A DNA stretch of 64,000 nt from Escherichia coli O127:H6 str. E2348/69. GTDB taxonomy: Bacteria > Pseudomonadota > Gammaproteobacteria > Enterobacterales > Enterobacteriaceae. The stretch is from NCBI RefSeq assembly GCF_000026545.1, contig NC_011601.1; one strand, 5' to 3'. The notes under the pieces are model-generated. The model had not been told where the DNA came from. It was given only the letters and a program-made list of their open reading frames with translations, and did no database searches. The position numbers and the translations under genes are program-made. Shown here piece after piece: positions 11,150-15,807 of this stretch (its first letter is position 1; every line of letters starts with the position of its first letter).

Positions 11150-11834
11150 ATGGGGGATATTATGCGTCCCATTCCGTTTGAGGAACTTTTGACGCGCATA
11201 TTTGATGAATACCAACAACAACGCTCAATCTTTGGTATTCCCGAGCAACAGTTTTACTCACCCGTAAAAAGTAAAACTGTTAGCGTCTTCGGTGAAACCT
11301 GTGCCACTCCCGTCGGCCCTGCCGCTGGCCCGCACACGCAACTCGCGCAAAATATTGTCACTTCCTGGCTGACTGGCGGACGCTTCATCGAACTAAAAAC
11401 CGTCCAAATTCTTGACCGTCTGGAGCTGGAAAAGCCCTGTATCGATGCCGAAGACGAGTGCTTTAACACCGAATGGTCTACCGAATTTACCCTGCTTAAA
11501 GCCTGGGATGAATACCTCAAAGCCTGGTTTGCCCTGCACCTTCTCGAAGCGATGTTCCAGCCTTCTGATTCCGGTAAATCGTTCATCTTTAATATGAGCG
11601 TCGGTTACAACCTCGAAGGTATTAAGCAACCGCCGATGCAGCAGTTCATCGACAATATGATGGACGCATCTGACCATCCGAAATTCGCTCAATACCGCGA
11701 TGCACTTAATAAGCTACTCCAGGATGAGGCATTTTTAGCCCGCCACGGATTGCAGGAAAAACGCGAAAGCTTGCAAGCCTTACCCGCTCGCATCCCCACC
11801 AGCATGGTACAAGGTGTTACCCTCTCCACCATGC
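11150..11834 (+). pseudogene. ygfK: ygfK 5' fragment (native codons 1-228), interrupted by IS insertion
   Basis: ORF MGDIMRPIPFEELLTRIF ends ...LSTM then reads PVS-stop from the IS end. Confidence 0.85.
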
Positions 11835-13384
11835 CTGTCTCTTGATCAGATCTCCTGATCAAGAGACTTCATCACCAGGTAACCCTCAACCATATCCTGA
11901 AGTCTGAACCAGCCATCCCACATGACTACCCAACCGGGGCGACCGGTGCGTTTGCTGTCATGCCATCGCCCCAGTTTCGCCAGTTTCAGACAGGCCCATT
12001 TCAGTGTCGGCATCTGTGACGGAAGCGGTTTTCCTTCCAGCTTAACCCACAGCAGTTTCCACTCTGTCGGCGTCAGTATTTTCTCACAGCTGTCATTTTG
12101 TGTTTCTTCACTGATACCGCCCTGCCGCAGGCCCAGCACCCGCACCGCGATAAACGCCTTGATAACCACCATGCGCTCGAGGTTATCCCGGGTCTGCATT
12201 CGCAGCGATTCCACACATGTACCACCACTTTTCCACGCCTTGTGGTATTCCTCTATCAGCCAGCGTCGCTCGTAATGGCTGACGATACGTCGCGCATCGG
12301 CGGCACTCGCCACTTTTTCTGACGTCAGCAGATGCCAGCAGGCGCCGTCCTCTGCCTGCTCCCGGCAACAGACATACGTGAGCGGGAGCGCCTGGCCGCT
12401 GTTGTCGGGATTTTTTATGCTGACTTCGCTGTAACTGATGAACATCCGGGCCTGGCGGGCTGCCCGCCCGCCTTTTTGCATCACATTCAGCGTGTGGCTT
12501 CCCGCGGTTGCCAGGACTTCCGGCAGTTCGAAGAGCTTGCCGGGTGCTTCTTCCAGCCGGCGATTCTGTGCTGCACGCACCACGAAGCGCTGCCCGTGGC
12601 TGACTTTATAATGCAGGTAATGCCAGATATCCGCTTCCCGGTCACAGACAGTGATTACCCGTTTCTGTATCTCCCCCAGCCGTTCGGCCATGCGCTCCGA
12701 AGCCTGCTGCCAGCGGTAACTTTCTTTTTCTTCATAGGGACGTTCTTTTCGCTGGTGCTTAACACCGTAGGTGTCCGTGGCACGACTCCAGCGCTGCTGT
12801 TCGATAAGACCGACTGGCAGGGCGCTGTCGGGGGCGTACATCAGGACAGAGTGAGCCAGCAGCCCGCGCGTCTTCGGGTTAGTGGTGGTATTCCCCAGGT
12901 CATCAGATGCCGTACTGTGACTGAAGTTAATGGTGGTGGTGTCTTCCAGCGCGAGGAGCAGCGGATGAGCCTCACATGCCCTTACAGTGGCGGTAAATCC
13001 GGCTTCGGCAATGGCTTGCGGGGACACAGACGGGTTACGTATCAGGCGGTACGCACCTTCAACCTGAGCAGTGGACTGGGATGATTTCACAATAGAAAGA
13101 CCTGCATGCTGAGCGAGAGAAGAGGCCAGTGACACAAGGCGTCGTGTACGACGCGGATCACCGAGACGGGCATGTCCAAACTGCTCGTTAGCCCATGAAT
13201 AACAATCAGAAAGTACCATAACAGACCCGAAGAAAATGAAATATAAGAGAAGATCAACAGGTGAGGAAAAAGTTCAAAAAATCGCTGCCGGGGAGGAAGG
13301 AAACTACCGGATGGAAAGAGTCCCCCTAAAGCAGACTGACAGACATCACAAATCCCCGGGTGGGGATTTGTGTATAAGAGACAG
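11835..13384 (-). mobile_element. IS4-family, IS50-like insertion sequence (1550 bp) flanked by 9-bp direct repeat ccaccatgc
   Basis: Left end ctgtctcttgatcagatct (IS50 inside-end-like, three GATC sites); right end ctgtctcttatacacaaat on opposite strand (outside-end-like); direct repeats at 11826-11834 and 13385-13393. Confidence 0.9.
11846..13219 (-). CDS. DDE transposase, IS4 family (Tn5/IS50 Tnp-like, divergent)
   Basis: 457-aa ORF with LGDPRRT, LEDTT, VCDREADI, RWLIEEYHKAWKSG, DSKRTG motifs matching Tn5 transposase blocks; stop codon lies inside the inside-end repeat. Confidence 0.88.
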   Translation of the reverse strand: MVLSDCYSWANEQFGHARLGDPRRTRRLVSLASSLAQHAGLSIVKSSQSTAQVEGAYRLIRNPSVSPQAIAEAGFTATVRACEAHPLLLALEDTTTINFSHSTASDDLGNTTTNPKTRGLLAHSVLMYAPDSALPVGLIEQQRWSRATDTYGVKHQRKERPYEEKESYRWQQASERMAERLGEIQKRVITVCDREADIWHYLHYKVSHGQRFVVRAAQNRRLEEAPGKLFELPEVLATAGSHTLNVMQKGGRAARQARMFISYSEVSIKNPDNSGQALPLTYVCCREQAEDGACWHLLTSEKVASAADARRIVSHYERRWLIEEYHKAWKSGGTCVESLRMQTRDNLERMVVIKAFIAVRVLGLRQGGISEETQNDSCEKILTPTEWKLLWVKLEGKPLPSQMPTLKWACLKLAKLGRWHDSKRTGRPGWVVMWDGWFRLQDMVEGYLVMKSLDQEI

Positions 13385-15807
13385 CCACCATGCACGGCTG
13401 TCCTCCGCATGAAATTGAAGCCATTTGCCGCTACATGCTGGAAGAAAAAGGGCTCAACACCTTTGTGAAACTTAACCCGGCCTTACTGGGGTATGCGCGT
13501 GTTCGTGAGATCCTCGATGCCTGCGGTTTCGGTTACATAGGCTTAAAAGAAGAGTCATTTGATCACGACCTCAAGCTGACGCAAGCACTGGAAATGCTGG
13601 AACGCCTGATGGCACTGGCAAAAGAAAAATCACTCGGCTTTGGCGTAAAACTGACTAACACTCTCGGCACCATCAACAATAAAGGCGCACTGCCCGGTGA
13701 AGAGATGTATATGTCAGGCCGTGCGCTGTTCCCGCTCTCCATCAACGTTGCAGCAGTTCTCTCTCGCGCCTTTGACGGCAAACTGCCCATTTCTTATTCC
13801 GGTGGTGCCAGTCAGCTGACTATCCGCGATATTTTTGATACTGGTATTCGCCCTATTACTATGGCAACCGACCTGCTGAAACCTGGCGGCTATCTGCGCT
13901 TAAGTGCCTGCATGCGCGAGCTGGAAGGCTCCGACGCCTGGGGACTTGACCACGTTGACGTCGAACGACTGAACAGACTGGCAGCAGACGCGTTAACCAT
14001 GGAATACACCCAGAAACACTGGAAGCCAGAAGAGCGTATTGAAGTGGCTGAAGACCTGCCGCTGACCGATTGCTACGTTGCCCCCTGTGTTACTGCCTGC
14101 GCTATCAAGCAAGATATTCCGGAATACATCCGTCTGCTTGGCGAACACCGCTATGCCGACGCGCTGGAACTCATCTATCAACGCAACGCCCTGCCCGCCA
14201 TTACCGGTCATATTTGCGATCACCAGTGCCAATACAACTGTACCCGCCTGGATTACGACAGTGCGCTGAATATCCGCGAACTGAAAAAAGTCGCCCTGGA
14301 AAAAGGTTGGGATGAATATAAGCAACGCTGGCACAAACCAGCCGGTTCTGGTTCACGCCATCCGGTTGCCGTGATTGGTGCAGGTCCGGCGGGTCTGGCG
14401 GCAGGTTACTTCCTTGCCAGAGCGGGCCATCCGGTCACGCTGTTTGAACGCGAAGCCAATGCGGGCGGCGTGGTGAAAAATATCATTCCTCAGTTCCGTA
14501 TTCCTGCAGAGTTAATTCAGCACGATATCGATTTTGTTGCCGCTCACGGCGTGAAATTTGAGTACGGTTGCTCACCCGATTTGACCGTTGAACAGTTAAA
14601 AAATCAGGGCTTCCACTATGTTCTGATTGCCACCGGCACTGATAAAAATAGCGGTGTGAAACTGGCGGGCGACAACCAAAATGTCTGGAAATCACTCCCT
14701 TTCCTGCGTGAATACAACAAGGGCACCGCGCTCAAGCTGGGCAAACATGTGGTCGTTGTCGGGGCGGGTAACACCGCAATGGACTGCGCTCGTGCGGCGT
14801 TACGCGTTCCAGGCGTAGAAAAAGCAACGGTCGTTTACCGTCGTTCACTGCAAGAAATGCCCGCTTGGCGCGAAGAGTATGAAGAAGCGTTGCACGACGG
14901 CGTGGAGTTCCGTTTTCTGAATAATCCGGAACGTTTCGATGCTGATGGCACCTTAACCTTGCGCGTTATGTCGCTTGGCGAACCTGATGAGAAAGGTCGT
15001 CGCCGTCCGGTAGAAACCAACGAAACAGTAACACTGCATGTAGACAGCCTGATCACCGCCATTGGTGAACAGCAGGATACTGAAGCCCTGAATGCGATGG
15101 GCGTGCCGCTGGACAAAAACGGCTGGCCAGACGTCGACCATAATGGCGAAACGCGTCTGAGTGACGTCTTTATGATCGGCGACGTACAGCGCGGACCATC
15201 CTCCATTGTCGCTGCTGTCGGAACCGCGCGTCGGGCGACCGATGCCATCCTGAGTAGGGAAAATATCCGTTCCCACCAGAACGATAAATACTGGAATAAC
15301 GTCAATCCGGCGGAAATCTATCAACGTAAAGGCGATATCTCTATCACTCTGGTGAACAGTGACGATCGTGACGCGTTTGTCGCGCAGGAAGCCGCTCGCT
15401 GCCTTGAATGTAACTACGTTTGCAGCAAGTGTGTGGATGTCTGCCCGAACCGCGCCAACGTCTCCATTGCGGTTCCTGGCTTCCAGAACCGTTTCCAGAC
15501 GCTGCACCTCGACGCTTACTGTAACGAATGTGGCAACTGCGCCCAATTCTGCCCGTGGAACGGTAAACCGTACAAAGACAAAATCACCGTCTTCAGCCTG
15601 TCGCAAGACTTTGATAACAGCAGCAACCCAGGCTTCCTTGTGGAAGATTGCCGGGTACGCGTACGTCTGAATAACCAAAGCTGGGTGTTAAACATCGACA
15701 GCGAAGGTCAGTTCAACAACGTACCACCGGAGCTGAACGATATGTGCCGCATCATTAGCCATGTCCACCAGCATCATCATTATCTGCTGGGTCGCGTGGA
15801 GGTGTAA
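13385..15807 (+). pseudogene. ygfK: ygfK 3' fragment (native codons 229-1032): glutamate-synthase-small-subunit-like FAD/NAD(P) oxidoreductase with 4Fe-4S domain
   Basis: Frame continues from the target duplication (ATG at 13390 inside the repeat); GAGPAG dinucleotide-binding motif; Cys-rich C-terminus; 228 + 804 aa = 1032. Confidence 0.85.

What the first reader, a model, noticed from the sequence alone, without database searches (positions are those of the whole stretch)
11826..13393. IS50-like insertion sequence splits ygfK with a perfect 9-bp target-site duplication
A 1550-bp element (11835-13384) is bounded by 19-bp ends resembling the IS50 inside end (ctgtctcttgatcagatct) and outside end (ctgtctcttatacacaaat) and flanked by the direct repeat ccaccatgc (11826-11834 and 13385-13393). 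Removing the element and one repeat copy restores a continuous 1032-codon ygfK frame (…LSTM|HGCPPHE…). A 9-bp duplication is the hallmark of IS50/Tn5-type transposition. This inactivates the putative selenium-dependent Mo-hydroxylase Fe-S/FAD subunit.
Basis: partly seen in the sequence, partly recalled or inferred. Interest (0 to 1): 0.7.

Follow-up and report, generated by a model that had tools for sequence, protein, structure and literature searches.

The report
ISEc13 insertion splitting ygfK in EPEC
A known Tn5-related jumping gene (ISEc13) has recently inserted into and broken the ygfK gene of the classic EPEC strain E2348/69; public annotation already records this, so it is ordinary.

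Summary
A 1550-bp element (11835-13384) sits between perfect 9-bp direct repeats, CCACCATGC. Removing it restores a 1032-codon ygfK that is contiguous in 5167 of 5426 complete E. coli genomes.

The element is ISEc13, a named member of the IS4 family, IS50 subgroup. It is not IS50 and not a Tn5 vector remnant: its transposase is 42% identical to Tn5 transposase and its DNA about 53% identical to IS50. One end is an exact IS50 inside end.

The window is EPEC E2348/69, where ISEc13 matches at 30 chromosomal places. RefSeq already annotates ygfK there as a split pseudogene. The copy looks recent and autonomous.

- YgfK is now known as the 2,8-dioxopurine (isoxanthine) reductase of anaerobic urate degradation. 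Downstream xdhD also carries a nonsense codon, so the pathway is broken twice.
- Nine bp is not a fixed hallmark of this element. Other copies have 8-, 9- or 10-bp duplications and sit almost always in C-arm-first GC hairpins at gene ends (CYCY|N8-10|RGRG). The ygfK site is an unusual intragenic, non-hairpin hit.

That target habit is the only mildly novel point.

The parts
11150..11834 (+). 5' fragment of ygfK (codons 1-228 plus 1 nt). The frame runs 3 codons into the IS and stops at 11845.
   Evidence: ORF list; RefSeq pseudogene annotation; reconstruction
11826..11834 (.). Left copy of the 9-bp target-site duplication CCACCATGC
   Evidence: present once in empty-site genomes
11835..13384 (-). 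ISEc13, complete 1550-bp copy (IS4 family, IS50 subgroup). The transposase is antisense to ygfK.
   Evidence: 100% identical to copies annotated 'IS4-like element ISEc13 family transposase'; full length in 873 of 5426 E. coli genomes
11835..11853 (+). 19-bp terminal repeat identical to the IS50 inside end (two GATC Dam sites). The tnp stop codon (11846-11848) lies inside it.
   Evidence: 19/19; same geometry as IS50, stop 11 nt from the tip
11837..11867 (.). Subterminal palindrome: 13-bp stem formed by end positions 3-15 and an inverted internal copy, with a 5-nt loop
   Evidence: Fold -13.5 kcal/mol, z = -5.9; an analogous inverted repeat is present in the Alishewanella relative; absent from IS50
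11846..13219 (-). Transposase gene, 457 aa, intact
   Evidence: PDB Tn5 transposase E = 6e-84; Pfam Tnp_DNA_bind + DDE_Tnp_1 + Dimer_Tnp_Tn5; NCBIfam NF033590, 514 bits; D93/D193/E323, Y316/R319/E323/K330 and W295 conserved
13220..13365 (-). Leader between the outside-type end and the tnp ATG (the ATG is at element position 166, against 93 in IS50). It contains a GATC and a TTGAAC motif shared with the Alishewanella relative. No strong sigma-70 match.
   Evidence: promoter scan found none
13347..13372 (.). Subterminal hairpin at the outside-type end (11-bp stem, 4-nt loop) overlapping end positions 13-19
   Evidence: Fold -12.5 kcal/mol, z = -5.7; a hairpin at the same place in the Alishewanella relative
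13366..13384 (-). 19-bp terminal repeat of outside-end type, CTGTCTCTTATACACAAAT
   Evidence: 17/19 to IS50 OE and 17/19 to the mosaic end; the first 23 nt are identical in the Alishewanella relative
13385..13393 (.). Right copy of the target-site duplication CCACCATGC. Its ATG (13390) is YgfK Met228 and opens the 805-codon 3' ORF.
13394..15807 (+). 3' fragment of ygfK (remainder of codon 229 to the stop). It holds the Fe-S, FAD/NAD(P)H and ferredoxin-like domains.
   Evidence: Pfam on the restored protein: Fer4_20 453-532, Pyr_redox_2 552-839, Fer4 about 900-950

Best explanation
This is a natural, recent, simple insertion of the autonomous insertion sequence ISEc13 into ygfK in EPEC O127:H6 strain E2348/69. 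ISEc13 is a Tn5/IS50-type cut-and-paste element. A dimer of its DDE transposase binds the two 19-bp ends, cuts the element out through a hairpin intermediate, and joins its 3' ends to the two target strands. In this case the joins were 9 bp apart. Gap repair then duplicated CCACCATGC. The insertion lies after the first base of codon 229, inside the N-terminal region of YgfK, with the transposase antisense to the gene. It therefore truncates YgfK at 228 residues and probably reduces transcription of the downstream ssnA-ygfM-xdhD genes. Because xdhD independently carries a nonsense codon, the first two steps of anaerobic reductive urate degradation are both knocked out in this strain. Shown here: element identity, ends, duplication, the empty site in other genomes, and conserved catalytic residues. 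Inferred: the hairpin mechanism (by homology to Tn5), polarity, and the metabolic phenotype.
For: The element and the duplication are exact. The element is 100% identical to ISEc13 copies, including the same site in NZ_CP059840.2, where ygfK is annotated as two pseudogene pieces. The window matches that record with 0 mismatches over 29,057 nt. The empty site is contiguous in 5167 of 5426 genomes, while the filled site occurs only in E2348/69-derived records. The nearest relative has intact ygfK and xdhD. The transposase is homologous to Tn5 Tnp over its full length (E = 6e-84, 42% identity), with DDE, YREK and the hairpin-stacking Trp conserved and all three Tn5-type Pfam domains. Size, end consensus and duplication length fit the published IS50-subgroup criteria. 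ISEc13 matches at 30 places in the E2348/69 chromosome against a median of 1 per genome, with an intact ORF and a perfect TSD, which points to recent activity. Five terminator-like hairpins lie on the ygfK-sense strand of the IS, against 1.7 expected. The xdhD TAG at codon 422 replaces CAG in the relative.
Against: No experiment shows that this copy is mobile or that the strain has lost urate or isoxanthine degradation. No convincing promoter for tnp was found. The ygfK target is atypical for ISEc13: it is intragenic, does not form a hairpin, and has C instead of G at flank position +2. All records that carry the insertion descend from one strain, so its presence in the original 1969 isolate rather than in laboratory stocks is untested.
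Confidence: 0.96

Rival explanations
1. The element is a laboratory Tn5/IS50 remnant from transposon mutagenesis or a cloning vector, which would make it an artefact rather than a native IS.
For: The left end equals the IS50 inside end at 19/19 and the right end is 17/19 to the outside end. The duplication is 9 bp, as for Tn5.
Against: A genuine IS50 (1534 bp) shares only about 53% global nucleotide identity, with only short BLAST islands. The protein is 42% identical to Tn5 Tnp. The element is full length in 873 natural E. coli genomes from humans, animals and water. No resistance genes or second IS flank it.
Confidence: 0.01
2. The junctions are an assembly artefact, meaning a repeat-induced misjoin, and ygfK is actually intact in the strain.
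For: IS copies are classic sources of misassembly. Two E2348/69-derived records were built from short reads with reference guidance and show a doubtful IS-IS tandem at this locus.
Against: A perfect 9-bp duplication of exactly the bases that are single-copy in empty-site genomes is the signature of real transposition, not of a misjoin. The IS|ygfK-3' junction is reproduced in separately generated assemblies.
Confidence: 0.02
3. The insertion is not a plain knock-out. It was selected, or it rewires expression. For example, outward transcription from the IS could express the 805-residue C-terminal YgfK fragment from the duplicated Met228 ATG, or ssnA-ygfM.
For: The duplicated ATG at 13390 opens an in-frame 805-codon ORF immediately at the IS tip. 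A second lesion in xdhD suggests that loss of the pathway is tolerated or favoured.
Against: No outward promoter-like site was found and no clear Shine-Dalgarno sequence lies before 13390. The fragment lacks the first 227 residues of the N-terminal region, which one preprint models as holding the substrate/FMN site. With xdhD also null there is no substrate flow.
Confidence: 0.05

Closest known systems
IS50 (IS50R of Tn5), type member of the IS50 subgroup of the IS4 family
   Same: It has a single-ORF DDE/YREK transposase with the Tn5 N-terminal DNA-binding, catalytic and C-terminal dimerisation domains. It has two non-identical 19-bp ends: an inside-type end identical at 19/19, including its Dam sites, and an outside-type end at 17/19. 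tnp reads from the outside-type end and stops 11 nt from the inside-end tip in both elements. The duplication at ygfK is 9 bp.
   Different: Protein identity is 42% and nucleotide identity about 53%. The size is 1550 bp against 1534 bp, and the leader is 165 nt against 92 nt. There is no Met or GTG at the position of Tn5 Met56, so no Inh-type inhibitor start is evident. Both ends carry subterminal hairpins. Duplication length varies from 8 to 10 bp, and the flanking target motif CYCY/RGRG is strong, whereas Tn5 makes fixed 9-bp duplications with a weak consensus (established knowledge, Goryshin et al. 1998, cited).
ISEc13 as annotated by NCBI/ISfinder (WP_000244358.1)
   Same: The DNA is 100% identical over 1550 bp to copies carrying that name, and the protein is the same.
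   Different: Nothing at the sequence level. Only the insertion site is specific to the E2348/69 lineage.
Unnamed 1481-bp IS of Alishewanella/Alteromonas (loci L004-L031)
   Same: The transposase is 49% identical. The CTGTCTCTT termini are the same and the first 23 nt of the outside-type end are identical. It has subterminal hairpins at both ends and a tnp stop 11 nt from the tip. It inserts into C-arm-first GC hairpins with A/T tracts and makes variable duplications.
   Different: It is shorter, and its duplications appear to be 6-9 bp under the boundaries used. It is found in marine gammaproteobacteria.
IS186 and IS231A (IS4 family elements with symmetric GC-rich targets)
   Same: From memory of the literature, not tested here: IS186 targets G-run/C-run palindromic sites with variable-length duplications, and IS231A prefers GGG-N5-CCC. 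The IS4-family review confirms that some members show strong conservation in the left and right target arms and variable DR length.
   Different: The polarity is opposite (C-run first, G-run second), and in ISEc13 the conserved bases lie just outside the duplication rather than within it.

Membership tests
IS4 family, IS50 subgroup (criteria of De Palmenaer et al. 2008, PMC2266710) | Single-ORF transposase with a DDE triad | tested here: met
   One 457-aa ORF. D93, D193 and E323 align with Tn5 D97, D188 and E326.
IS4 family, IS50 subgroup (criteria of De Palmenaer et al. 2008, PMC2266710) | Complete Y-(2)-R-(3)-E-(6)-K signature | tested here: met
   Y316, R319, E323 and K330 have the exact spacing. 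The criterion is quoted.
IS4 family, IS50 subgroup (criteria of De Palmenaer et al. 2008, PMC2266710) | Size 1350-1550 bp and end consensus CW------Y---CA-A--W- | tested here: met
   The element is 1550 bp. Both ends match all seven specified positions (sequences read against the consensus).
IS4 family, IS50 subgroup (criteria of De Palmenaer et al. 2008, PMC2266710) | Direct repeats of 8-9 bp | tested here: met
   The repeat is 9 bp here. Among 13 distinct sites: 8 bp in six, 9 bp in four, 10 bp in three. This is slightly wider than the stated range.
IS4 family, IS50 subgroup (criteria of De Palmenaer et al. 2008, PMC2266710) | Tn5-type domain architecture (N-terminal DNA-binding, catalytic, C-terminal dimerisation) | tested here: met
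   Pfam PF14706, PF01609 and PF02281. Full-length alignment to Tn5 Tnp structures. NCBIfam NF033590 scores 514 bits against a cutoff of 160.
ISEc13 (same element) | Near-identity of DNA and transposase to the named element | tested here: met
   100% over 1550 bp to RefSeq copies named ISEc13 family, protein WP_000244358.1. The ISfinder reference entry itself could not be consulted.
IS50 / Tn5 itself | Sequence identity to IS50 | tested here: not met
   About 53% global nucleotide identity and 42% protein identity.
IS50 / Tn5 itself | Inhibitor protein (Inh) from an internal in-frame start at Met56 | tested here: not met
   The aligned position is Gln52 (CAG), followed by Val53 (GTT). There is no start codon.
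IS50 / Tn5 itself | Invariant 9-bp target duplication | tested here: not met
   Other copies have exact 8- or 10-bp duplications, which cannot be re-read as 9 bp.
Cut-and-paste via transposon-end hairpin (Tn5/Tn10 mechanism) | Biochemical hairpin intermediate | not testable with these tools
   There is only indirect support: W295 (Tn5 W298), the YREK residues and R215 (Tn5 R210) are conserved.

The most novel reading that the evidence does not exclude
ISEc13 and its clade, down to 49% protein identity, may choose targets differently from Tn5. Strand transfer seems to be positioned by a CYCY tetranucleotide on each strand, typically the outer stem of a C-arm-first GC hairpin or Rho-independent terminator, rather than by a fixed stagger. 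That would explain exact duplications of 8, 9 or 10 bp. The ygfK hit would then be a rare near-consensus (7 of 8 positions), non-hairpin, intragenic event. If the pattern is real and not already documented, it would be a natural Tn5-family transposase with arm-directed, variable-stagger target capture and a built-in bias towards terminators, which are relatively safe insertion sites.
Probability: 0.4. Interest if true: 0.4.

Novelty: already known. Interest (0 to 1): 0.15.

Why it matters
The finding itself matters little. It confirms a pseudogene already annotated in a heavily used reference pathogen and assigns it to a named IS. It has some practical value, because E2348/69 should be unable to run the recently defined anaerobic urate (2,8-dioxopurine) pathway: ygfK is split and xdhD carries a nonsense codon. 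Anyone using this strain for gut purine-metabolism or colonisation studies should know that. The side observation on ISEc13 target choice could interest transposon biologists and people engineering Tn5-type transposases, but it needs experimental confirmation.

Tried and rejected
- An exact-pattern scan of 100,044 species-representative genomes for the outside-type end found nothing. The protein-based scan found only relatives at 53% identity or less. So there is no evidence for ISEc13 proper outside E. coli in that set.
- An Rfam search of the element at E <= 1 found no RNA-OUT-like or other known RNA.
- The sigma-70 promoter scan found no site in or around the IS, so I make no claim about the tnp promoter or an outward promoter.
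- The E2348/69 genome paper (PMC2612414) is not held. Literature searches for ISEc13 returned only incidental listings. Searches for a prior description of terminator or hairpin targeting in this subgroup found nothing specific.
- I first read the abutted ISEc13-ISEc13 tandem and the missing 22.7 kb in LT827011 and LT903847 as an unusual IS-mediated deletion. I downgraded this after finding that those genomes are short-read, reference-guided assemblies and that one is a derivative of the other.
- I rejected an 8-bp reading of the ygfK duplication, because the flanks allow only 9 bp.
- Loci L042-L048 were selected with a query that carried the ygfK flanks, which biases their left flanks. The motif statistics were therefore re-checked on the unbiased subset.
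Full report
**Observation.**
- CCACCATGC occurs at 11826-11834 and 13385-13393. It is exact and cannot be extended.
- The 1550 bp between the repeats start with CTGTCTCTTGATCAGATCT, which matches the IS50 inside end at 19/19.
- They end with the reverse complement of CTGTCTCTTATACACAAAT, which is 17/19 to the IS50 outside end and 17/19 to the mosaic end.
- One 457-codon ORF (11846-13219, minus strand) fills the element and stops inside the left end.
- Deleting the element and one repeat gives a single 1032-codon ygfK frame.

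**Identity and source.** The element is 100% identical over its full length to copies annotated 'IS4-like element ISEc13 family transposase'.
- It matches at 30 places in the chromosome of EPEC E2348/69 (NZ_CP059840.2) and twice on plasmid pMAR2.
- Full-length copies occur in 873 of 5426 complete E. coli genomes, and partial matches in 2991.
- One of the E2348/69 copies is this very insertion. RefSeq annotates ygfK there as two pseudogene pieces around the transposase.
- The window is the reverse complement of that record, with 0 mismatches over the 29,057 nt compared.

**Empty-site test.** The flanks joined with one repeat copy are contiguous in 5167 of 5426 genomes. The filled site is found only in three E2348/69-derived records. 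The closest empty-site genome (AP029605.1, 99.8% identical) has an intact 1032-aa YgfK that differs from the reconstruction by one residue. This is therefore a true, lineage-specific transposition event and not a chance repeat or a misjoin.

**What kind of element.**
- The transposase aligns end to end with the crystallised Tn5 transposase (E = 6e-84) at 42% identity.
- D93/D193/E323, the YREK residues Y316/R319/E323/K330, W295 (Tn5 W298) and R215 (Tn5 R210) are conserved.
- Pfam finds the Tn5 DNA-binding, DDE and Tn5 dimerisation domains. NCBIfam NF033590 scores 514 bits.
- Size, both terminal sequences and the duplication length fit the IS50-subgroup criteria of the IS4-family review.

**Not IS50 or Tn5.** A genuine IS50 retrieved from a plasmid shares only about 53% global nucleotide identity. 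BLAST detects only short islands, among them the termini. The layout is nevertheless the same: tnp runs from the outside-type end and stops 11 nt from the inside-type tip in both elements.

**Differences from IS50.**
- There is no start codon at the Tn5 Met56 position, so no Inh-type product is evident.
- The leader is longer, 165 nt against 92 nt.
- Each end carries a significant subterminal hairpin (z = -5.9 and -5.7).
- No Rfam family matches the element, and no consensus promoter was found.

**Consequence for the host.** Two 2025 preprints show that YgfK is the NAD(P)H-dependent reductase of 2,8-dioxopurine (isoxanthine). This is the second step of anaerobic reductive urate degradation. 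The preprints find that it is not a selenate reductase.
- The IS enters after the first base of codon 229, in the N-terminal region upstream of the Fe-S and FAD/NAD(P)H domains.
- The IS lies antisense to ygfK. On the ygfK-sense strand it presents five terminator-like hairpins, against 1.7 expected. Polarity on ssnA-ygfM-xdhD is therefore plausible but unproven.
- xdhD, which encodes the first step, independently carries TAG at codon 422 (19228-19230), where the relative has CAG.
- The pathway is thus broken twice in this strain. This is an inference from sequence, and no phenotype was tested.

**Target duplication and target choice (side finding).** I surveyed other ISEc13 copies (analysis).
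- Thirteen distinct sites have exact duplications of 8 bp (six sites), 9 bp (four) and 10 bp (three). The lengths cannot be re-read as 9 bp.
- The four bases outside the duplication follow C-Y-C-Y on the left and R-G-R-G on the right. C is at -2 and -4 in 13/13, G is at +4 in 13/13, and G is at +2 in 12/13.
- In the subset found without any flank in the query (seven exact-repeat sites, plus one site with a 9-bp repeat carrying one mismatch), -2, -4, +2 and +4 fit in all eight. The only deviation is C at +1 in the mismatched-repeat site.
- Twelve of the 13 reconstructed targets fold as GC hairpins (-7 to -25 kcal/mol). They lie just past gene 3' ends, several with T-runs.
- The yccJ|agp site is occupied in both orientations in two strains.
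- The ygfK site is the outlier. It is intragenic, has no hairpin and has C at +2, but it matches 7 of the 8 flank positions.
- The relaxed motif occurs 23 times in this window alone. Hairpin context, purifying selection, or both must therefore also shape where copies are seen.
- A 49%-identical relative in Alishewanella shares the termini, the end hairpins, the variable duplications and the C-arm-first hairpin targets.
- The IS4-family review mentions arm-specific targets and variable repeat lengths in other subgroups but says nothing specific for this one. I could not consult ISfinder.

**An item I downgraded.** In LT827011 and its derivative LT903847 the locus reads araE-ISEc13-ISEc13-ygfK 3', with 0 bp between the two IS copies. 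The 22.7 kb that separates the ygfK copy from the kduD/araE copy in CP059840.2 is absent there. Those genomes were assembled from 150-174-nt reads with reference guidance. A dropped IS-bounded contig is therefore at least as likely as a real deletion.

**Verdict.** The feature is a known IS in an already annotated pseudogene of a reference strain, so novelty and interest are low. The only new lead is the apparent target rule and variable stagger of the ISEc13 clade.

Noticed in passing
window 19228-19230 (xdhD, 17965-20835, + strand): xdhD, the uric acid to 2,8-dioxopurine step, has a TAG nonsense codon at codon 422 where the closest relative has CAG (Gln). This is a second, independent lesion in the same pathway as ygfK.
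   Followed up: yes
loci L034-L049 (IS at about 301-1850), L003 39736-41285, window 11812-13407: ISEc13 copies carry exact 8-, 9- or 10-bp duplications. The flanks follow CYCY|TSD|RGRG, nearly always inside C-arm-first GC hairpins at gene 3' ends. The ygfK site is the only intragenic, non-hairpin one.
   Followed up: partly
L047 and L048 (yccJ|agp intergenic hairpin): The same terminator-like hairpin is occupied by ISEc13 in opposite orientations in two unrelated strains, with complementary 9-bp duplications. These are independent hits on one hotspot.
   Followed up: partly
L002 2451-5550; L051 951-4050: Two complete ISEc13 copies abut with 0 bp between them next to araE, and the 22.7 kb between the ygfK and kduD/araE copies is missing in E2348/69 'variety 2' and its derivative EPEC1. 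These are short-read, reference-guided assemblies, so this may be a scaffolding artefact.
   Followed up: partly
window 11837-11867 and 13347-13372: Both IS ends carry strong subterminal hairpins that include part of the 19-bp terminal repeat. Equivalent structures exist in the 49%-identical Alishewanella element but not in IS50. Their function is unknown.
   Followed up: partly
L033 (pMAR2 copy) and L043: These ISEc13 copies have no flanking direct repeat. In L033 each flank on its own still looks like a half target (CCCT...; ...AGAGG). This suggests recombination between IS copies or an adjacent deletion.
   Followed up: no
L007 and L015 (Alishewanella jeotgali): The flanks of two IS copies are reciprocal: L007-left pairs with L015-right, and the reverse. 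This indicates an inversion by recombination between the two copies.
   Followed up: no
window 13366-13384: The outside-type end has T at position 4, as in the IS50 inside end and the engineered hyperactive mosaic end. It is a natural end that is partly mosaic-like.
   Followed up: no
window 30266, 33651, 39648, 52594: Four unoccupied strict CCCY-N8-10-RGGG motifs lie in the window. They are potential ISEc13 targets.
   Followed up: no
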